Assembly: GCA_035252905.1 (NCBI GenBank) | Contig: DATFCQ010000051.1 | Coordinates: forward strand, 317 to 64,316 | Length of the DNA stretch: 64,000 nucleotides | Direction of reading: 5' to 3' | DNA from: Stellaceae bacterium | Lineage (GTDB): Bacteria; Pseudomonadota; Alphaproteobacteria; ATCC43930; CGMCC-115725 | Part shown: positions 1 through 35,912 of the stretch, in pieces | How the letters are laid out: each line of letters begins with the position of its first letter | Position numbering within the stretch: the first letter of the stretch is position 1 | Translations under genes and position numbers: made by a program | Notes under the pieces: model-generated | Seen by the model: the letters and a program-made list of their open reading frames with translations, nothing else | Database searches by the model: none | What the model was told of the DNA's origin: nothing

Positions 1-367
1 GTGCCCGCGCCGCGCGCCGGCGGACCCAGCATTCGAGAAACAGAGGTTCGGCGATAAACAGCAGCAGGGTGAACAGGAGCCAGACCAGAACCATTGCATC
101 GAGCCACCAATAGGCCGCCGACGCAAAGCCCGCCCATAGGCCGAGCCGATCGACCATGTAGAAGCCGCTCGCCCCGACGAGCAGTGTCGCAATGCGGGCC
201 TGCCGGGCAAAGCGGCGCTCGACCGCCGCAAACAGGGCGAACGGATTGCTGCCGTCCGGGTCGCGCCGGATCGCCGGCAACAGCGCGGTGGTCACCATCG
301 ACACGCCGCCGATCCAGAGCACGACGGCGAGCACATGGATCACAAGAGCAATCGCAAAGTCGTTCAT
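1..367 (-). CDS. integral membrane protein of unknown function (partial; C-terminus lies beyond window start)
   Basis: My own reverse translation from ATG at 367-365 gives MNDFAIALVIHVLAVVLWIGGVSMVTTALLPAIRRDPDG... It stays open to position 1 (122 codons), has strong GC3 bias and several hydrophobic helices. It is missing from the ORF track only because it runs off the edge. It is divergent from the norB-like gene. Confidence 0.5.
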   Translation of the reverse strand, partial: MNDFAIALVIHVLAVVLWIGGVSMVTTALLPAIRRDPDGSNPFALFAAVERRFARQARIATLLVGASGFYMVDRLGLWAGFASAAYWWLDAMVLVWLLFTLLLFIAEPLFLECWVRRRAARA

Positions 368-5875: not shown

Positions 5876-5878
5876 GCA

Positions 5879-5966
5879 GCGGAATGCGCTGCGCTTTTCC
5901 GCCCTACAACGACAACGTCCTCCACAAGCATGGAGCGTAGGGCGGAATAGCGGAGCGTATTCCGCC
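5879..5966. repeat. REP-like palindromic intergenic element, copy 1 (two inverted arms)
   Basis: Arm GCGGAATGCGCTGCGCTTTTCCGCCCTAC (5879-5907) and inverted arm GTAGGGCGGAATAGCGGAGCGTATTCCGCC (5937-5966). Each arm is itself a GGCGGAA...TTCCGCC hairpin. The same family recurs at 10231, 13364, 16797, 29926 and 35835. Confidence 0.85.
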
Positions 5967-10230: not shown

Positions 10231-10315
10231 GGCGGAATACGCTACGCTTTTCCGCCCTACGCTTGTCGGAAATATCGTAGGGCGGAAAAGCGCCGCGGGC
10301 GGCGCGCATTCCGCC
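10231..10315. repeat. REP-like palindromic element, copy 2
   Basis: GGCGGAATACGCTACGCTTTTCCGCCCTAC (10231-10260) and inverted GTAGGGCGGAAAAGCGCCGCGGGCGGCGCGCATTCCGCC (10277-10315). Confidence 0.85.
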
Positions 10316-13363: not shown

Positions 13364-13432
13364 GGCGGAATGCGCTGCGCTTTTCCGCCCTACATCGTCC
13401 TCGTAGGGCGGAAGAGCGCAGCGTATTCCGCC
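13364..13432. repeat. REP-like palindromic element, copy 3
   Basis: GGCGGAATGCGCTGCGCTTTTCCGCCCTAC, a 7-nt spacer, then GTAGGGCGGAAGAGCGCAGCGTATTCCGCC. Confidence 0.85.
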
Positions 13433-16796: not shown

Positions 16797-16855
16797 GCTG
16801 CGCTATTCCGCCCTACGAGGACGGTGTAGGGCGGAATAGCGCAGCGCATTCCGCC
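16797..16855. repeat. REP-like palindromic element, copy 4 (first arm 5'-truncated)
   Basis: GCTGCGCTATTCCGCCCTAC, a spacer, then GTAGGGCGGAATAGCGCAGCGCATTCCGCC. Confidence 0.8.
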
Positions 16856-28015: not shown

Positions 28016-28462
28016 ATGACCAACCCCGACCGGTTCGCTCTCGAACGCTTTGTCACGGCCCAGGCACCCGTCTTTTCCTCGGTAGTGGAGGAGCTCAAGG
28101 CGGGCCGCAAGCGCAGCCATTGGATGTGGTTCATCTTTCCGCAATTGCGCGGGCTGGGCCGTTCCCCGACGGCCGAGCTCTACGGCATCGGCTCGCTTGA
28201 CGAGGCGCGCGCCTACCTCGCCCATCCGGTGCTGGGACCCCGGCTCGATCGGTGCACCCGCCTGGTTCTCGCCATCGAGAACAGCTCGTTGCATCGGATA
28301 TTCGGATCGCCGGACGACCTCAAATTCCGCTCCTCGATGACCCTGTTCGCGCTCGCGGCAGGGGATCAGGGAAGCCCGTTCCGGCAGGCTCTCGACCGCT
28401 GGTGCGACGGCCAAGTCGATGAAAGGACGCGGGAGCTGTTGGACACCGGCGGTCGGCACTAG
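28016..28462 (+). CDS. DUF1810 domain-containing protein
   Basis: 148-aa ORF. RFVTAQAPVFSSVVEELKAGRKRSHWMWFIFPQLRGLGRS is the signature N-terminal block of DUF1810. Confidence 0.85.
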   Translation: MTNPDRFALERFVTAQAPVFSSVVEELKAGRKRSHWMWFIFPQLRGLGRSPTAELYGIGSLDEARAYLAHPVLGPRLDRCTRLVLAIENSSLHRIFGSPDDLKFRSSMTLFALAAGDQGSPFRQALDRWCDGQVDERTRELLDTGGRH

Positions 28463-28493
28463 GCGGACGCCGGGATCGGAATGGGGGGACAAC

Positions 28494-29918
28494 ATGCGGC
28501 TGCCGGCAGCCTGCTACCTCTTGGCCCTGCTTGCCTTCAGTGCCGCGGGATGCCAGCCGAATGCTCCGCTCCGTTATCGGACGGATGCGTGTCTGGCGCC
28601 GGCCGGCGCCACCGGCGACGCGTGCGGCGTCTCCTCCTTGGAGGAGCATCGGCTGCAGAACCACCCCGGCCAATCCTTCCTGCTCGGCTTTGTCGAGGTC
28701 GACGATCAGGGCAGGCCGTATATCCGCAACCAGATCCCCCTATTGTTCAACCGGATCGAGCAGGAGGCCCGGTACCGGGACCTGTCGATCGTCGTCTTCG
28801 TCCACGGCTGGAAGCACAACGACGCGCCGACCGACGACAATGTCGTCGCGTTTCGCCGCCTGTTGCGGCAGGTGGCCGAAATTGAATTGCAGCGGGCGCC
28901 GACCTACTGGCCGAAGCGCAAGGTGGTCGGGATCTATATCGGGTGGCGCGGGCTTTCGTTCGGCGCCGGCGAGATCGGGCAGGACCTGACGTTCTGGACG
29001 CGCATGGCTGCCGCCCATCGCGTCGCCGAGGGAGCGGTGCGCGAGGTGTTGGCGCGCGCCAAGGCGCTGCGCGACGCCGTCGACGCCTCATCCTGGCCCG
29101 GCCATCAGGATCACCGCAGCACCCGATTGATCACGATCGGGCACAGCTTTGGCGGATTGATCGTCTACACGGCCCTGTCGCAATACTTCATCGACCAAGC
29201 GGTACAGAGCGAGGCGGCACCATTCGCCCGATCCCTGCTGCCCGCGCCGGCGCAAGGCGGACCGGACAAGGGCAAGGAGATCGCCGGGTACGGCGACCTC
29301 GTGGTCGTCGTCAATCCGGCGATCGAAGCGACGCGCTTCGAGCCGATCCGCGAATTGATGCAGAACCGCCGCAGCCCGGGCGGTTTTGCCCCGAACCAGA
29401 ACCCGGTCTTTGTCGAGGTCACCTCGGACGCCGATTGGGCGACCGGCATCGCCTTCCCCGCCGGGCGCCTCGTCAACACGACGGTCGAGAGCTTTACCGG
29501 CCAGGGCGAGCGGCAGGAAGCGATGGCCGCGCTCGGCCATTATCCCCTGTTCTGGACCCATCGCCTCGCGGGCCCTGCGGCCCGAGCGGACCAGAACCCG
29601 ACGCCGCCGCCGATCGACGTCGAACAGGAATGCCGCGACTTCGCCCGCTTCACTACGCAGGAGCGGGCCGACGGCTATCTGAAACCCGGCTGGCGGCGGC
29701 GCTACCGGACCGGCGCCGTACTGACTGCGAACGCGAATTTCGACCCCAACGACCCCTTCTGGATCATCACCACCGACCAATCGATGATCGAGGGCCACAA
29801 CGACATCGAGGAGCCGGTCTTTGTCGATTTCATCCGCCAGCTCTATGACGACCTCGTCCGCCTCAAGGAGGACGTGCCGTGCCGCACCACACCGGGCGCG
29901 GCGCGCAAGATAGGATGA
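28494..29918 (+). CDS. lipoprotein, alpha/beta-hydrolase (esterase/lipase-like) of unknown specificity
   Basis: Within ORF 28419..29918. ATG 28494 gives MRLPAACYLLALLAFSAAGC (lipobox). VVFVHGWKHN and the nucleophile elbow GHSFGG are present. Confidence 0.75.
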   Translation: MRLPAACYLLALLAFSAAGCQPNAPLRYRTDACLAPAGATGDACGVSSLEEHRLQNHPGQSFLLGFVEVDDQGRPYIRNQIPLLFNRIEQEARYRDLSIVVFVHGWKHNDAPTDDNVVAFRRLLRQVAEIELQRAPTYWPKRKVVGIYIGWRGLSFGAGEIGQDLTFWTRMAAAHRVAEGAVREVLARAKALRDAVDASSWPGHQDHRSTRLITIGHSFGGLIVYTALSQYFIDQAVQSEAAPFARSLLPAPAQGGPDKGKEIAGYGDLVVVVNPAIEATRFEPIRELMQNRRSPGGFAPNQNPVFVEVTSDADWATGIAFPAGRLVNTTVESFTGQGERQEAMAALGHYPLFWTHRLAGPAARADQNPTPPPIDVEQECRDFARFTTQERADGYLKPGWRRRYRTGAVLTANANFDPNDPFWIITTDQSMIEGHNDIEEPVFVDFIRQLYDDLVRLKEDVPCRTTPGAARKIG

Positions 29919-29925
29919 ACAAGAT

Positions 29926-29951
29926 GGCGGAATACGCTGCGCTATTCCGCC
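29926..29951. repeat. REP-like element, copy 5 (single arm only)
   Basis: GGCGGAATACGCTGCGCTATTCCGCC hairpin without the CTAC junction or a second arm. It lies between convergent genes and probably also acts as a terminator hairpin. Confidence 0.75.
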
Positions 29952-30009
29952 GCTTTTCAAACAGGATCCAAATCAAAACAGATTTAAACTGATCCCTCTT
30001 TTTCCAAAC

Positions 30010-31323
30010 TCATGCAGCCACCGGCTCCAACTCTCCCTCCAGCTCCTCGCGCTCTACCTTGTGATGGTTGACAAGGAGTGTACGGATTGTCAGCTCGGAG
30101 ACTGCGAAGTGAGCGGCGGCCTCCTGCTGCGCTTCCATCGAATAGTCGCCCGCCAGCATTTCATCGACGGCTTCGAAGGGGGCGAGCAATTCCGCCGCAA
30201 AGGACCGCTGCATTTTTTGATGATAGGTATGAGCGCGCGTCGCCGGGTGCAGGCATCCCGGGATCGGCAGGATGATCCGATTGCCGAGCAGCCGCGCCAA
30301 TTCGAAGCGTCGTCCAGTTTCCCATTTCGAGCGGAACACGACGCGCCCCTCTGTCGGCCCTCGGTCGAGAGCGAATGAGATCTGCGGTCCGATGGTCCGG
30401 CCCGTCAAGGCCCGCGCCTGCACGCCGGCGAGCTTGGCCAAGGTATGGTTATCGATTTTCTTAGAGCCGAGCCGTTCCTGATCGCGAAGCGCCCGGGCCG
30501 CCAACGCACCGAGCCGCCAAGCCGGAACCTCCGCGGCTCGCGGCAGCTCGGGGTTTGGCTTGAACGCGACAACATCGCGCGGCGATGCGTCGAAGCCGCT
30601 CTCGGCGGCGACCCGAGCCAAGCTTTCGGCGGTCAGCAGCGAGCCGCCGCGAGCGTGATCGGCCGCGAGTTCTTCGACCGCTTGTTCGCCAAGCAAAGCA
30701 GTGTCCGCCACCAGACGCTCGAGCACTGTAGGCTCGGCCTCATCAGGGTCCTTGCCAGAGAGGGCTTCCAGTTTCCGGCGCTTGAACAGGTCACGGTCCG
30801 CGCGCTCGATCAGAACATCGCGCCAGATGCAGTCGAGATTGGTCTCACTGATGCCCTGATCCCGCAGCCGACCCAAAATGCGCGGGATAAAAGCGTCCAA
30901 GGCTGCCTCAAACTGTGTAGAGGGCAGGACGCACGGGGACGCTCCAAGATACCGGAAAGGCTTTGCATTCGGCCGGACAGAGCGTTCGGCCAGCAAGGCT
31001 GTCCTCACCCCATCGGAAAAGATCGTCAGGTTCGGCCAGACATAGCCCTCGCCGATTGCCGTCATCTTGTGGGCGCGCCACCATTCCGGGGCACTGGATT
31101 GGGGTTCGAAGCGCAGCCTCCACCAATTCCAGGCAAGCCACTCGGCGGCGTGATAGCCTGAAACCAGAGGTCCTGGCCGATAAGCCGAGATGAAGAAATC
31201 CATGCCACTGGTCAACTCGACCTCGCCGGCGCGGATCGTGAACAGGCCGAAACAGGCGCATTCCTCGGGCGTCCCCTCATCCAGCCGCTCTGGCGCCAGC
31301 GCGATCTCTAGCCCTGCGGCCAT
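30010..31323 (-). CDS. hypothetical protein: unknown Trp-rich N-terminal domain plus C-terminal ImmA/IrrE-like domain lacking HEXXH
   Basis: ORF 30010..31335. I prefer ATG 31323 because GGAGGG lies 4 nt upstream. The C-terminal ~160 aa (KIDNHTLAKLAGVQARAL...GRVVFRSKWETGRRFELARLLGNRI...QKMQRSFAAELLAP) follows the ImmA/IrrE (COG2856) layout, but HExxH is replaced by ARLLGN. Confidence 0.75.
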   Translation of the reverse strand: MAAGLEIALAPERLDEGTPEECACFGLFTIRAGEVELTSGMDFFISAYRPGPLVSGYHAAEWLAWNWWRLRFEPQSSAPEWWRAHKMTAIGEGYVWPNLTIFSDGVRTALLAERSVRPNAKPFRYLGASPCVLPSTQFEAALDAFIPRILGRLRDQGISETNLDCIWRDVLIERADRDLFKRRKLEALSGKDPDEAEPTVLERLVADTALLGEQAVEELAADHARGGSLLTAESLARVAAESGFDASPRDVVAFKPNPELPRAAEVPAWRLGALAARALRDQERLGSKKIDNHTLAKLAGVQARALTGRTIGPQISFALDRGPTEGRVVFRSKWETGRRFELARLLGNRIILPIPGCLHPATRAHTYHQKMQRSFAAELLAPFEAVDEMLAGDYSMEAQQEAAAHFAVSELTIRTLLVNHHKVEREELEGELEPVAA

Positions 31324-31748
31324 CGTGCCCTCCATTCCCGGAGTATGTACCGACGCATTTCCGGCTCGTCTTCCCCAATCCGATAGCCGTGATACGATGT
31401 ATCCGGGGGTTTGGCTTTGGCTTCGTAGACTTCCCCCTCGGCATCAACGGCCCATACGTATTTGGGCACCCCGCCGGACTCGAACCGGCTGACCATTCCC
31501 GCTGCGAGGCCTTTGCGGAACAGCATTACTGCGTCCGCACGGAGCAGCGGGCGAAGCTCGTCGCAGAGCGATTTCGAAGGCCGCGGATTGATCGGCGGCA
31601 CGAAGCCGTAGTCACCGGGGTAGAGTTTGTGAAGGCTGCTGCCGCCATAGCGCAAACGGACCGCCAGAGCCTGCAACTCCTCGGCCCCGACCGACTCTGC
31701 GGGAAGGACGCGGCGGTCCGGCCGGTTGCTCTGTCGCTTTCTCGTCAT
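31308..31748 (-). CDS. small hypothetical protein (146-152 aa), first gene of the orphan cassette
   Basis: ORF 31308..31766 (GTG 31766 or ATG 31748). It has a basic N-terminus (TRKRQSNRPDRR) and motifs HKLYPGDYGFVPP, RPSKSLCD, VWAVDAEGEVYEAK and SYHGYRIG. I recognise no family. Its 3' end overlaps the next gene by 16 nt. Confidence 0.65.
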   Translation of the reverse strand: MTRKRQSNRPDRRVLPAESVGAEELQALAVRLRYGGSSLHKLYPGDYGFVPPINPRPSKSLCDELRPLLRADAVMLFRKGLAAGMVSRFESGGVPKYVWAVDAEGEVYEAKAKPPDTSYHGYRIGEDEPEMRRYILREWRARWPQG

Positions 31749-31772
31749 GCCTGACGCGCGCCGCACCCAGCC

Positions 31773-32516
31773 CTATTGCGCGATATACCCGCCGTCGATG
31801 ACCAGTTCGGCGCCGGTAACGAACGAGGCCTCGTCGGAGGCGAGGAACAACACGCCGTAGGCGACCTCGATCGGCTGGCCGATCCGGCGCAGCGGGGTCA
31901 TTGCGATCTTCTCGTCGCGCTCGCCGGCATTGGTCGCGTTCAGCATCGGCGGCATGTAGCCGGGATGGACGGTGTTGACCCGCACGCCCATGGGGCCGTA
32001 GCGCACCGCCGCCGCCTTCGAATAGATCCGCACTGCACCCTTCGACGCGTGATAGGCCGGGTGGCCGCTGCCGCCGCCGACAAAGCCCATGATCGAGCTG
32101 ATGTTGACGATCGAACCGCCTCCGGTCTTGGCCATCTGCTCGGCGGCGAGCTTGGTGCCGAGAAAGACGCTGGTCTGGTTGACCGCGATGATGCGGTCCC
32201 ACCCTTCAAGGGCGTCGCGGTCGCCGACCGAGCTGCCGGAGATCCCGGCATTGTTGACGAGGATGTCGAGCCGGCCGTAGCGCGCCACCGTCGCCGCGAT
32301 CAGGTCGCGCCACTCGGCCTCGCGCGTCACGTCGATCGTCGCGGCCTGGGCCTCGCCGCCGCCGGCGCGGATGTCGGCGGCGATCGCCTCGGCTTCTTTC
32401 GCCAGGATATCGGCGACGAAGAGCCTCGCGCCCTCCGCCGCGAACAGGCGCGCCTCGGCCTCCCCCATGCCGTGCGCCGCGCCGGTCACGATCGCCACCT
32501 TGTCCTTGAGCCGCAT
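31773..32516 (-). CDS. SDR family oxidoreductase (classical short-chain dehydrogenase)
   Basis: Within ORF 31773..32828; ATG 32516. MRLKDKVAIVTGAAHGMG (TGxxxGxG), NNAG, the YxxxK motif YHASKGAV, and PGYM. Confidence 0.92.
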   Translation of the reverse strand: MRLKDKVAIVTGAAHGMGEAEARLFAAEGARLFVADILAKEAEAIAADIRAGGGEAQAATIDVTREAEWRDLIAATVARYGRLDILVNNAGISGSSVGDRDALEGWDRIIAVNQTSVFLGTKLAAEQMAKTGGGSIVNISSIMGFVGGGSGHPAYHASKGAVRIYSKAAAVRYGPMGVRVNTVHPGYMPPMLNATNAGERDEKIAMTPLRRIGQPIEVAYGVLFLASDEASFVTGAELVIDGGYIAQ

Positions 32517-35834: not shown

Positions 35835-35912
35835 GGCGGAATGCCCCCGGCTTTCGCCGGGGTTTTCCGCCCTACGGTTCGTGTAGGGCGGAAAAGCGCA
35901 GCGCATTCCGCC
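35835..35912. repeat. REP-like palindromic element, copy 6
   Basis: GGCGGAATGCCCCCGGCTTTCGCCGGGGTTTTCCGCCCTAC, a spacer, then GTAGGGCGGAAAAGCGCAGCGCATTCCGCC. Confidence 0.85.

What the first reader, a model, noticed from the sequence alone, without database searches (positions are those of the whole stretch)
30010..31766. Orphan two-gene cassette: small basic protein plus large protein ending in a catalytically dead ImmA/IrrE-like domain (candidate undescribed toxin-antitoxin/defence-type module)
Seen in sequence: two same-strand ORFs overlap by 16 nt. A GGAGGG Shine-Dalgarno for the second gene lies inside the 3' end of the first, so they are translationally coupled.

Gene 1 (146-152 aa) has a very basic N-terminus and sharp motifs (HKLYPGDYGFVPP, RPSKSLCD, VWAVDAEGEVYEAK, SYHGYRIG) that I cannot assign to any named family.

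Gene 2 (437 aa) has a Trp-rich N-terminal ~250 aa (AEWLAWNWWRLRFEP, WWRAHKMTAIGEGYVWPN) with no family I recognise. Its C-terminal ~160 aa follows the ImmA/IrrE (COG2856) layout block by block: 'KIDNHTLAKLAGVQARAL', 'GRVVFRSKWETGRRFELARLLGNRI' and 'QKMQRSFAAELLAP'. However, the zinc-binding HEXXH position reads A-R-L-L-G-N, so it looks like a pseudo-peptidase.

Context: the cassette starts only 7-25 nt after the stop of an unrelated SDR gene. It ends in an AT-rich 58-bp spacer next to the only half-copy of the REP family, and its GC looks a few percent below its neighbours.

Inference: ImmA/IrrE domains are typical sensors or antirepressors in mobile elements and in toxin-antitoxin or abortive-infection modules. 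An inactive version fused to a novel domain and coupled to a small unknown protein is the sort of architecture found in uncharacterised defence/TA systems.
Basis: partly seen in the sequence, partly recalled or inferred. Interest (0 to 1): 0.8.

Follow-up and report, generated by a model that had tools for sequence, protein, structure and literature searches.

The report
Rosmer-like two-gene cassette, dead peptidase
This is a small mobile two-gene unit: a basic 146-residue protein plus a larger protein whose ImmA/IrrE-type protease domain has lost every catalytic residue. It is widespread in soil Proteobacteria, often sits inside a known anti-phage system, and most resembles the Rosmer toxin-antitoxin defence, so it is a good but untested candidate for a new defence module.

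Summary
On the minus strand, gene 1 (31748..31308, 146 aa) and gene 2 (31323..30010, 437 aa) overlap by 16 nt, with GGAGGG just upstream of the gene 2 start.

Neither protein hits Pfam, NCBIfam, PADLOC or PHROGs. Both belong to large families under purifying selection, and the two genes are always adjacent: 78/80 genome loci and 32/32 metagenome loci. DNA homology between loci stops at the cassette ends, so this is a discrete mobile unit. Its contexts vary: chromosome, ICE, plasmids. About 19% of loci sit between hmaA and hmaB of the Hma defence system. None was found in phage collections.

The C-terminal domain of gene 2 is ImmA/IrrE-like (Foldseek CapP prob 1.00, IrrE 0.93). Of 40 close homologues, 21 hit the Rosmer antitoxin model RmrA (best E 2.4e-8). 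None of 240 homologues has HExxH: H→R, E→L/Q, H→D/N, and there is no third-ligand Glu.

The N-terminal domain of gene 2 and all of gene 1 match no known family or fold.

Best reading (inferred, not shown): a divergent Rosmer-like toxin-antitoxin/defence cassette. Gene 1 would be the effector; gene 2 a non-proteolytic neutraliser and sensor. New variant of a known kind; function untested.

The parts
31308..31748 (-). Gene 1: 146-aa basic protein (pI 9.6). No known family. Candidate effector/toxin.
   Evidence: ORF. The ATG start agrees with the homologue alignment. There are 372 close homologues and 561 clusters at 50% identity. No Pfam, NCBIfam, PADLOC or PHROG hit. dN/dS is 0.16-0.41. pI.
31689..31748 (-). 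Gene 1 N-terminal Arg/Lys-rich tail (residues 1-20; family consensus NPKRR).
   Evidence: Alignments A2 and A3. Segment pI is 11.8.
31560..31649 (-). Gene 1 conserved Pro-rich segment Y34..H40-K41..P-G-D-Y-G-F..P-R-P..C62-D63. It is nearly invariant in the family, yet residues 40-59 are predicted disordered.
   Evidence: Invariant columns in A2 and A3. pLDDT is below 50 for residues 40-44 and 48-59.
31311..31565 (-). Gene 1 core: helix, three beta-strands, helix (residues 62-146), with invariant E109-A110 and Y119-H120-G121-Y122 (31383..31394).
   Evidence: AF2 model, pLDDT above 90 over most of this part. Conservation across both clades.
31308..31333 (-). Translational-coupling junction: GGAGGG (31333..31328), gene 2 ATG (31323..31321) and gene 1 TAG (31310..31308), giving a 16-nt overlap.
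   Evidence: Read directly from the sequence. An overlap of 4-22 nt at the homologous position is seen in nearly all related loci.
30010..31323 (-). Gene 2: 437-aa acidic protein (pI 5.6). Candidate neutraliser/sensor.
   Evidence: ORF. At least 1395 homologues plus a sister clade of at least 338. AF2 pLDDT 88.9, pTM 0.89. dN/dS 0.14-0.22.
30754..31323 (-). Gene 2 N-terminal Trp-rich alpha/beta domain (about residues 1-190; AEWLAWNWWRLRFEP, GEGYVWPN, SDG). No known family or fold match.
   Evidence: Invariant D42, S55, R69, E73, H85, N98, S103-D104, R124-Y125, E173-R174 and E186. No Pfam hit. No PDB fold match beyond the C-terminal domain.
30538..30753 (-). Gene 2 acidic helical middle region (about residues 191-262). 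Poorly conserved and variable in length.
   Evidence: Alignment A1. Secondary structure. Segment pI 4.4.
30139..30537 (-). Gene 2 ImmA/IrrE (M78)-like pseudo-peptidase domain (about residues 263-395).
   Evidence: Foldseek: CapP 7t5t prob 1.00, IrrE 3dte prob 0.93. Pfam Peptidase_M78 is sub-threshold in 7/40 homologues, e.g. residues 338-413 of P0064. hhalign against IrrE is in register. PADLOC RmrA hits 21/40 homologues.
30280..30294 (-). Degenerate HEXXH position: R344-L-L-G-N348.
   Evidence: hhalign register is RRFELARLLGN against QRFTLAHEISH. Across 240 homologues: R 240/240, L or Q at the Glu position, D 228/240 at the second His position (N only in the window).
30205..30228 (-). Region of the third zinc ligand: T366-Y-H-Q-K-M-Q-R373. 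It has no acidic residue; Q369, Q372 and R373 are invariant.
30064..30138 (-). Helix-turn-helix-like motif (about residues 396-420; AAAHFAVSELTIRTLLVNH), equivalent to the central HTH of IrrE/CapP.
   Evidence: Weak HTH Pfam hits at this place in many homologues. hhalign aligns it with the IrrE HTH segment. Weak match to the Mu transposase DNA-binding domain, E 0.034.
29926..30009 (.). Downstream boundary: a 58-nt AT-rich spacer plus a REP-like 26-nt palindrome that scores as a terminator-like hairpin on the minus strand. This is host sequence, not part of the mobile unit.
   Evidence: DNA homology to other loci ends at 30016.

Best explanation
The cassette is an autonomous, horizontally mobile two-gene module of the toxin-antitoxin / abortive-infection defence type. 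It is a distant, atypical relative of RosmerTA.

Shown:
- The two genes are translationally coupled and inherited strictly together.
- Both are under purifying selection.
- They move as a discrete unit of about 1.8 kb between unrelated contexts, including plasmids, an ICE and the interior of Hma defence operons.
- Gene 2 ends in an ImmA/IrrE-fold domain plus an HTH. All zinc ligands and the catalytic Glu of that domain are replaced by other, themselves invariant, residues.

Inferred:
- Gene 1, the small basic protein, is the effector (toxin). Its nearly invariant His, Lys, Cys, Asp, Glu and Tyr-His-Gly-Tyr residues look like an enzyme active site.
- Gene 2 neutralises gene 1 by binding, not by cleavage. 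It may hold the conserved, unstructured Pro-rich segment of gene 1 in the remodelled substrate cleft.
- Gene 2 also acts as the sensor, through its novel N-terminal domain and/or the IrrE-like groove and HTH. A phage-derived or DNA-damage signal would free gene 1, which then arrests the infected cell.
For: Coupling and co-occurrence: 78/80; 32/32.

Selection.

Discrete mobile unit.

Patchy spread over Alpha-, Beta-, Gamma- and Deltaproteobacteria, Planctomycetes and Spirochaetes (266 species genomes).

Two copies in one MAG.

Plasmid and ICE locations, next to dptGH, CBASS and vapC.

Embedding between hmaA and hmaB in 10/80 genome loci and 12/34 metagenome loci. Genes embedded in Hma proved defensive in 7 of 9 tested cases (10.1101/2024.01.29.577857).

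M78-like fold. RmrA model hits in 21/40 homologues, best E 2.4e-8.

In RosmerTA the Zn-peptidase protein is the antitoxin, it is paired with diverse toxins, and the toxin gene comes first in 58% of pairs.

Basic small protein (pI about 9.1) against acidic large protein (pI about 5.3).

Natural variants in which gene 1 is frameshifted, truncated or replaced by an IS while gene 2 stays intact. These show gene 2 alone is tolerated.

The pseudo-active-site residues are invariant, i.e. a retained binding pocket.
Against: No experiment or direct computation shows toxicity, neutralisation, binding or defence.

Gene 1 matches no toxin family. The Foldseek RelE/HigB/ParE hits are insignificant (best E 0.6, prob at most 0.14), and hhalign against RelE gives probability 0.5%.

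The window's own gene 2 does not reach E<=1 against RmrA.

Two metagenome contigs have a frameshifted gene 2 with an intact gene 1. If real, gene 1 alone is tolerated too.

About 80% of loci are not next to recognisable defence genes.

No conserved operator was found upstream.

In the window there is no promoter-like site and only 24 nt of spacer after the SDR gene.

Confidence: 0.5

Rival explanations
1. Gene 2 is itself both sensor and effector: its conserved, charged N-terminal domain is an unrecognised enzyme. Gene 1 is an accessory activator, adaptor or co-sensor rather than a toxin.
For: The N-terminal domain has many invariant Asp, Glu, His, Ser and Arg residues across clades that are only 26-31% identical. 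Loss of gene 1 with gene 2 intact is tolerated, as expected if gene 2 is auto-inhibited. An N-domain-only fragment sits next to a DNA methylase on Acidithiobacillus plasmids.
Against: By homology, the M78-containing protein is the antitoxin in Rosmer systems. Gene 1 carries an equally enzyme-like set of invariant residues. No nuclease or other effector fold was detected in gene 2.
Confidence: 0.15
2. A purely selfish addiction (post-segregational killing) toxin-antitoxin pair that stabilises plasmids, ICEs and islands, with no role in phage defence.
For: It occurs on conjugative and mobilisable plasmids and on an ICE. Most chromosomal copies are solitary, among housekeeping genes. It sits next to vapC in several loci.
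Against: It is enriched at one fixed position inside Hma operons, in 22 of 114 loci. Hma itself is rare: 1,485 systems in more than 230,000 genomes. Rosmer relatives are defensive.
Confidence: 0.15
3. A non-proteolytic regulatory pair, analogous to ImmA/ImmR, IrrE/DdrO or CapP/CapH, that switches on neighbouring genes such as the Hma operon in response to DNA damage.
For: Structural similarity to CapP and IrrE, with a retained HTH. CapP/CapH regulate many immune operons and sense ssDNA in a groove against the HTH. The cassette holds a fixed place inside Hma operons.
Against: The protease is dead in all 240 homologues. Gene 1 has no HTH or repressor-like domain. There is no GAF domain. About 80% of cassettes lie in unrelated contexts with no recurrent neighbour, which a dedicated regulator would not tolerate.
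Confidence: 0.08
4. An ordinary metabolic or housekeeping operon partner of the upstream SDR and amidase genes.
For: Gene 1 starts only 24 nt after the SDR stop, and no promoter-like site was found. The window flanks are metabolic genes.
Against: DNA and protein homology to other loci stops exactly at the cassette ends. The SDR is not a recurrent neighbour. GC is 5-10 points lower than in the flanks.
Confidence: 0.02

Closest known systems
RosmerTA (RmrT toxin + RmrA Zn-peptidase antitoxin; Millman et al. 2022; NetFlax node D25)
   Same: It is a two-gene, co-directional, overlapping cassette. The larger protein carries an ImmA/IrrE-type domain that matches the RmrA HMM in 21/40 close homologues. 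Its partner is a small protein of no known family, and the toxin-first order is common in this group. It associates with defence loci.
   Different: The HEXXH motif and the third ligand are gone in every homologue. There is no N-terminal XRE-HTH; instead there is a novel Trp-rich domain of about 190 aa plus an acidic linker. Gene 1 hits no RmrT model. The window protein itself scores below E=1 against RmrA. Toxicity and defence are untested.
CapP/CapH, IrrE(PprI)/DdrO and ImmA/ImmR protease-repressor switches
   Same: These are the best structural matches of the C-terminal domain (7t5t prob 1.00; 3dte prob 0.93). The order is the same: peptidase-like domain, then HTH. They are also found with immune operons and mobile elements.
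   Different: Those proteins are active zinc peptidases that cleave an XRE-family repressor, and they carry a C-terminal GAF domain that forms the ssDNA groove. Here the active site is dead, there is no GAF, the extra domain is N-terminal, and the partner is not an HTH repressor.
COG2856-Xre toxin-antitoxin pairs (Makarova et al. 2009; Brucella ZnMP/HTH-Xre)
   Same: A small mobile two-gene module that contains a COG2856/M78 domain.
   Different: In those pairs the metalloprotease is proposed as the toxin and the Xre protein as the antitoxin. Here proteolysis is impossible and there is no Xre partner.
Hma-embedded candidate systems (HEC-01..09, PDCs; Payne et al. 2024 preprint)
   Same: The cassette is embedded between hma genes in the way those candidates were defined, and it is also common outside Hma.
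   Different: None of HEC-01..09 has this domain composition. No PADLOC-DB v2 HEC or PDC model hits either protein. No M78 entry appears in the held supplements (the files were truncated when stored).
RelE/HigB/ParE toxins (toxin-first higBA-like operons)
   Same: A small basic protein encoded first. RelE-superfamily structures recur among the weak Foldseek hits.
   Different: No hit is significant (E at least 0.6). hhalign against RelE gives probability 0.5%. The conserved residues (HK, CD, EA, YHGY) have no RelE counterpart.

Membership tests
Peptidase family M78 (ImmA/IrrE, Pfam PF06114, COG2856) | Domain fold and sequence similarity to the M78 catalytic domain | tested here: met
   Foldseek: CapP prob 1.00 (E 0.039, 182 columns), IrrE prob 0.93, PprI 0.72. 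hhalign against IrrE is in the expected register but weak (prob 20%). Pfam M78 is the top family but sub-threshold: 7/40 homologues, best E 0.0063, 14.8 bits against a 22-bit cut-off. So this is homology at fold level; it does not reach Pfam's gathering score.
Peptidase family M78 (ImmA/IrrE, Pfam PF06114, COG2856) | HEXXH zinc-binding and catalytic motif | tested here: not met
   0 of 240 homologues contain HExxH anywhere. The aligned positions read R (240/240), L or Q, and D/E/N. The window reads R-L-L-G-N.
Peptidase family M78 (ImmA/IrrE, Pfam PF06114, COG2856) | Third zinc ligand: a Glu about 25-30 residues downstream (E..xxFAxxLLxP) | tested here: not met
   The FAAELLAP block is kept, but the preceding segment is T-Y-[RH]-Q-K-M-Q-R, with no acidic residue.
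RosmerTA defence system | RmrA-type antitoxin (match to RmrA models) | tested here: inconclusive
   21/40 close homologues hit PDLC03949 (best E 2.4e-8) and 2 hit PDLC03946. P0098 matches over residues 277-426. The window protein and the sister-clade proteins give no hit at E<=1.
RosmerTA defence system | Antitoxin is a Zn-peptidase (as described by Millman et al.) | tested here: not met
   The active site is absent. Whether RmrA needs its catalytic activity is not known to me.
RosmerTA defence system | Adjacent RmrT toxin | tested here: inconclusive
   A conserved adjacent partner exists, but it hits no PADLOC model, RmrT included. RmrTs are heterogeneous by definition.
RosmerTA defence system | Toxicity of T, neutralisation by A, protection against phage | not testable with these tools
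   Needs expression and plaque assays.
Type II toxin-antitoxin module (general) | Two adjacent co-directional genes, usually overlapping, always found together | tested here: met
   16-nt overlap. 78/80 and 32/32 co-occurrence. Overlaps of 4-22 nt in relatives.
Type II toxin-antitoxin module (general) | Patchy, horizontally mobile distribution in variable contexts | tested here: met
Type II toxin-antitoxin module (general) | DNA-binding antitoxin that autoregulates through an operator | tested here: inconclusive
   There is an HTH-like motif at residues 396-420. No shared upstream operator was found.
CapP/CapH - IrrE/DdrO - ImmA/ImmR regulators | Partner is an XRE-family HTH repressor that gets cleaved | tested here: not met
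   Gene 1 has no HTH hit. Its predicted topology is helix, three strands, helix.
CapP/CapH - IrrE/DdrO - ImmA/ImmR regulators | C-terminal GAF domain forming the ssDNA groove | tested here: not met
   The protein ends about 17 residues after the HTH. The extra domain is N-terminal and unmatched.
Hma defence system (as a core component) | Obligatory presence within hmaA-hmaB-hmaC operons | tested here: not met
   Only 10/80 genome loci and 12/34 metagenome loci are Hma-embedded. The window has no Hma genes nearby.
RelE/ParE toxin superfamily (gene 1) | Significant fold or profile similarity | tested here: not met
   Foldseek best E 0.6-3, prob at most 0.14. hhalign probability 0.5%.

The most novel reading that the evidence does not exclude
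The dead ImmA/IrrE domain works as a 'substrate trap'. Its remodelled, invariant cleft (R344, D348, R368, Q369, Q372, R373) clamps the invariant but unstructured Pro-rich segment of gene 1 (HK-x-PGDYGF-x-PP..PRP) like an uncleavable pseudo-substrate. A phage cue, sensed by the novel Trp-rich N-terminal domain or by the IrrE-like DNA groove, releases gene 1. Gene 1 would then be a toxin of a previously unseen enzymatic fold, possibly a minimal Cys-His enzyme with Cys62 at a helix N-terminus and His120 on the facing sheet. That would make this the founding member of a new defence family built on a pseudo-protease.
Probability: 0.15. Interest if true: 0.8.

Novelty: new variant of a known kind. 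Interest (0 to 1): 0.6.

Why it matters
If the inference holds, this is a widespread defence or toxin-antitoxin family that is currently invisible to annotation. It is found in 266 species-level genomes, with well over 1,700 protein clusters across two clades, and it has no Pfam, NCBIfam, PADLOC or PHROG model.

Its sensor/antitoxin is a protease fold that has universally lost catalysis while keeping a conserved pocket. That would show that ImmA/IrrE-type modules can regulate by binding alone.

It would also add two new domains: the gene 1 effector and the gene 2 N-terminal domain.

Finally, it gives a concrete, cheap test of 'guilt by embedding' for Hma operons. On the practical side, profile models built from alignments A1, A3 and A8 would let defence-finding tools detect the family.

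Tried and rejected
- **Sequence libraries.** Pfam, NCBIfam, PADLOC and PHROGs gave no hits on the window proteins.
- **PDB profile searches.** The full-length and C-terminal profiles found nothing significant and did not recover IrrE or CapP.
- **Foldseek for gene 1.** PDB and BFVD gave no significant match. A RelE-like reading was considered and dropped after hhalign gave probability 0.5%.
- **Phage origin.** There were no relatives in IMG/VR (pattern scan) or in INPHARED (tblastn).
- **Third conserved gene.** Neighbour clustering found none beyond the Hma genes in a minority of loci.
- **Conserved upstream operator or promoter.** None was found. A TTGTTTAAACAA palindrome is shared by only two loci.
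- **Toxin assignment from decay asymmetry.** Gene 1 is disrupted with gene 2 intact in about 6-7 of 79 loci; the reverse occurs in 2 of 32. The numbers are too small, and partly from error-prone assemblies, to be decisive.
- **A corrected error of mine.** I first thought the plasmid homologues carry only the C-terminal half of gene 1. That was wrong: the annotated starts are too far downstream and the full ORFs are present.
- **Active M78 genes in the fetched loci, as alignment partners.** None was found. I used the IrrE sequences printed instead.
- **Ideas considered from motifs only.** GIY-YIG, PD-(D/E)XK, ADP-ribosyltransferase and RNase T1/Sa-like readings of the gene 1 motifs do not fit the predicted strand and helix order. 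A papain-like Cys-His reading fits the topology but has no tool support.
Full report
**1. What is in the window**

Both genes lie on the minus strand.
- Gene 1 runs from ATG 31748 to TAG 31310..31308 and encodes 146 aa. A GTG at 31766 would give 152 aa, but the alignment of homologues supports the ATG.
- Gene 2 runs from ATG 31323 to the stop at 30010 and encodes 437 aa. An in-frame ATG at 31335 would give 441 aa.
- The overlap is 16 nt. GGAGGG (31333..31328) lies 4 nt before ATG 31323.
- The SDR gene upstream ends at 31775..31773, so only 24 nt separate it from gene 1. No sigma-70-like promoter was found between 29700 and 32300.
- Downstream there is a 58-nt spacer of about 34% GC, then a REP-like 26-nt palindrome at 29926..29951 that scores as a terminator-like hairpin.
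- GC is 0.57-0.65 over the cassette and 0.67-0.73 in the flanks.
- The flanking genes are amidases, a DUF1810 protein, a 499-aa protein with no Pfam hit, an SDR and a CCG/Fe-S protein. That is a metabolic neighbourhood.

One detail is wrong: the REP copy at 29926 is not the only single copy in the window.

**2. Real, conserved genes without annotation**

Neither protein hits Pfam, NCBIfam, PADLOC or PHROGs, even at E<=1.
- Gene 2 has at least 1395 homologues at 90% clustering. The source is a Stellaceae MAG.
- Gene 1 has 372 homologues, and 561 clusters at 50% identity match its profile.
- A sister clade has gene 2 only 26-31% identical (at least 338 proteins). It occurs in Pseudomonas citronellolis, Stappia, Castellaniella, Mesorhizobium, Massilia and on rhizobial and sphingomonad plasmids.
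- A few of these proteins are named 'ImmA/IrrE family metallo-endopeptidase' (NCBI) or 'Zn-dependent peptidase ImmA (M78 family)' (JGI). Most are called 'hypothetical'.
- For pairs with unsaturated dS, dN/dS is 0.16-0.26 for gene 1 (one pair 0.41) and 0.14-0.22 for gene 2.
- The window copy looks intact. Gene 1 deviates at none of 44 highly conserved positions. Gene 2 deviates at 3 of 109. It also has N348, where the other top-120 homologues have D or E, and H368, which is one of those three deviations.

**3. The two genes are one unit**

- In 80 loci from species-representative genomes chosen by gene 2, a gene 1 homologue lies directly upstream on the same strand in 78. One exception is at a contig edge. 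In the other, gene 1 is replaced by an IS transposase-like ORF.
- In 34 metagenome loci chosen by gene 1, gene 2 follows in all 32 that extend far enough.
- The stop of gene 1 falls 4-22 nt inside gene 2 in nearly all loci. In the sister clade the overlap is usually 4 nt.
- The small partner of the sister clade has the full gene 1 architecture. Two RefSeq plasmid annotations call it too short.
- No other neighbour family occurs in more than 11 of 80 loci.

**4. It is a discrete mobile element cargo**

- Closely related cassettes with different flanks share DNA homology only over about 1.75-1.9 kb: L023/L032, L019/L020 (two copies in one MAG), L087/L089 and L041/L043.
- The window's homology to every fetched locus is confined to 31751..30016.
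- Carriers are mainly Alphaproteobacteria, but also Beta-, Gamma- and Deltaproteobacteria, Pirellulales and Spirochaetia (266 species genomes).
- Contexts seen: housekeeping genes; an integrase island; conjugative and mobilisable plasmids; an ICE; a dptGH/patatin region; a type II CBASS neighbour; a vapC gene immediately upstream.
- No relative was found in IMG/VR or in INPHARED phages.

**5. Link to a defence system**

In 10 of 80 genome loci and 12 of 34 metagenome loci the cassette lies in the fixed order hmaA - gene 1 - gene 2 - hmaB - hmaC. The flanking genes match PADLOC's HmaA, HmaB and HmaC models at E=0 to 1e-233.

Payne et al. found 1,485 Hma systems in more than 230,000 genomes. They showed that genes embedded in Hma are often independent defence systems that also occur elsewhere; 7 of 9 tested were defensive. 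None of their HEC-01..09 matches this cassette, and no HEC or PDC model in PADLOC-DB v2 hits it.

Among 139 nearest neighbours of non-Hma loci, most are ordinary genes. A few are integrases or an IS, HipA, RepC, further HmaA, MADS genes, HerA, a type IV restriction enzyme, SoFic and PDC-S02.

**6. Gene 2 anatomy**

The AF2 model is confident (pLDDT 88.9, pTM 0.89). The parts are:
- residues 1 to about 190: a Trp-rich alpha/beta domain;
- about 191-262: an acidic, variable helical region;
- about 263-395: an M78-like domain;
- about 396-420: an HTH-like motif.

The only probable PDB fold matches are CapP (7t5t, prob 1.00), IrrE (3dte, 0.93; 3dti, 0.77) and PprI (8slm, 0.72). They cover 165-182 columns.

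Sequence evidence agrees but is weak:
- Pfam Peptidase_M78 is the most frequent family among 40 homologues, yet always below threshold.
- hhalign against IrrE sequences (printed) gives probability 20%. The expected blocks are in register: RRFELARLLGN against QRFTLAHEISH, FAAELLAP against GAAALLMP, and the HTH segment.
- PADLOC's RmrA model, the Rosmer antitoxin, hits 21 of 40 close homologues (best E 2.4e-8).

None of 240 homologues from both clades has HExxH anywhere. The first His is Arg in 240/240. The catalytic Glu is Leu or Gln. The second His is Asp in 228/240. The stretch where the third ligand should be is T-Y-R-Q-K-M-Q-R, with Q369, Q372 and R373 invariant.

So this is a pseudo-peptidase whose former active-site pocket is itself under strong constraint.

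Compared with CapP and IrrE (peptidase, HTH, GAF; ssDNA binds in the peptidase/GAF groove against the HTH), the GAF domain is missing and a new domain has been added at the N-terminus. No fold or family was found for that N-terminal domain.

**7. Gene 1 anatomy**

The AF2 model (pLDDT 79) shows:
- a basic tail;
- a short helix;
- a low-confidence stretch (residues 40-59) that nevertheless contains the most conserved motif of the family (HK-x-PGDYGF-x-PP..PRP..CD);
- a confident helix / three-strand / helix core carrying E109-A110 and Y119-H120-G121-Y122.

Across 54 diverse members, these residues are at least 90% conserved: Y34, H40, K41, C62, D63, P95, W99, E109, A110, Y119, H120, G121, Y122 and W139.

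Foldseek finds nothing significant in PDB or BFVD. RelE/HigB/ParE toxins recur among the weak hits, but hhalign against RelE is negative.

The family is basic (mean pI about 9.1). Gene 2 is acidic (about 5.3).

**8. Interpretation**

The closest known system is RosmerTA. There a Zn-peptidase protein is the antitoxin and is paired with diverse toxins of unknown families. The toxin gene often comes first, and deletion of rmrA could not be obtained.

On that basis I read gene 2 as a binding-only neutraliser and sensor, and gene 1 as the effector. Four observations support this:
- the charge asymmetry between the two proteins;
- the enzyme-like invariant residues of gene 1;
- natural variants in which gene 1 is broken while gene 2 is intact: a shared 1-nt deletion in two Xanthobacter strains, an IS replacement, and truncations;
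- the constrained pseudo-active site of gene 2.

The steps 'toxic', 'neutralises', 'senses phage' and 'defends' are all inference. Two metagenome contigs with a frameshifted gene 2 and the lack of any toxin-family match keep confidence at about 0.5. The rival readings are listed separately: sensor-effector gene 2, addiction only, regulator, and metabolic.

**9. Novelty**

The general kind is known: an ImmA/IrrE-containing toxin-antitoxin or defence pair. The variant is new in three ways: a universally dead peptidase, a new N-terminal domain, and a new partner family. It is absent from Pfam, NCBIfam, PADLOC v2 and PHROGs. I found no paper describing it.

Noticed in passing
window 5878-5903, 5941-5966, 10231-10256, 13364-13389, 13407-13432, 16830-16855, 29926-29951, 35887-35912: A REP-like 26-nt palindrome (GGCGGAATACGCTGCGCTATTCCGCC, up to 3 mismatches) occurs 8 times against 0 expected. 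Two occurrences are inverted pairs and four are single copies. The one at 29926 doubles as a terminator-like hairpin between two convergent genes.
   Followed up: partly
window 28419-29918 (+): A 499-aa ORF with no Pfam hit. It has a lipoprotein-like N-terminus (LLALLAFSAAGC) and a GHSFGG serine-hydrolase-like motif. Its ORF overlaps the end of the DUF1810 gene (28016-28462), so the real start is probably further downstream.
   Followed up: no
L011, L012, L013, L023, L032 (about 110 nt upstream of the gene 1 homologue): The reading frame just upstream ends in ..SYALA..DHPLLFKGDDF..TDI.., which to me looks like the C-terminus of a VapC/PIN toxin. That gives hmaA - vapBC - gene 1 - gene 2 - hmaB, i.e. 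two toxin-antitoxin-like modules stacked inside one Hma operon. The VapC identity rests on my recognition of the motif and was not tested with a profile.
   Followed up: no
L091:5711-5953 (Massilia sp. H6 plasmid, WP_307729957.1) and L092:5678-5959 (Allorhizobium pseudoryzae plasmid, WP_165225920.1): The RefSeq start codons of the small partner gene are too far downstream (80 and 93 aa). The open frames extend upstream to full-length gene 1-like proteins that carry the NPKR and HK..P..GL..CD motifs.
   Followed up: yes
L046 and L049 (Xanthobacter sp. VTT E-85239 and E-85242), about 9905 in locus coordinates: A shared 1-nt deletion frameshifts gene 1 right after EVYEAK and removes the YHGY part. 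Gene 2 is intact and identical to that of sibling strains with an intact gene 1 (L047, L048, L050).
   Followed up: yes
L035:2012-3199: A 395-aa ORF resembling a DDE transposase (..DFYHVCEYL.., recognised by eye) occupies the place of gene 1. Gene 2 downstream is full length.
   Followed up: partly
L019 and L020 (same MAG, Proteobacteria bacterium DS4.bin94): Two copies of the cassette, 94.5% identical over 1.88 kb, sit on different contigs with unrelated flanks. This is either a duplication or transfer within one genome, or strain mixing in the bin.
   Followed up: no
L015 (about -30) and L031 (about -68 to -50) relative to the gene 1 start: A perfect palindrome TTGTTTAAACAA (tandem in L031) lies upstream of gene 1 in these two loci only. 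It could be a lineage-specific operator or a chance or restriction-site-like sequence.
   Followed up: partly
L012:148-3444 and L012:14833-18240: Two HmaC-like ATPase genes (E 2e-285 and 1e-233) flank one hmaA-hmaB pair. This suggests two adjacent or rearranged Hma systems.
   Followed up: no
L093:4944-5639 (Acidithiobacillus caldus SM-1 plasmid pLAtc3) and NC_010600.1 56323-56736: A 231-aa protein equals only the N-terminal domain of gene 2 (30-33% identity). It ends in a Lys-rich tail that looks like a truncation, and it lies directly upstream of an N-6 DNA methylase gene. There is no gene 1-like partner.
   Followed up: partly
window 30280-30282 and 30220-30222 (gene 2 residues 348 and 368): Among the 120 top-scoring gene 2 homologues listed, the window's gene 2 is the only one with Asn instead of Asp/Glu at the former second-His position, and with His instead of Arg at residue 368. 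Both sit in the conserved pseudo-active-site pocket.
   Followed up: partly
L028:6010-9282 and L028:11581-14757: The cassette is flanked on both sides by co-directional ORFs of about 1060-1090 aa. They did not match the L012 Hma proteins at E<1e-20. This may be embedding in a different large system. They were not scanned against PADLOC.
   Followed up: no
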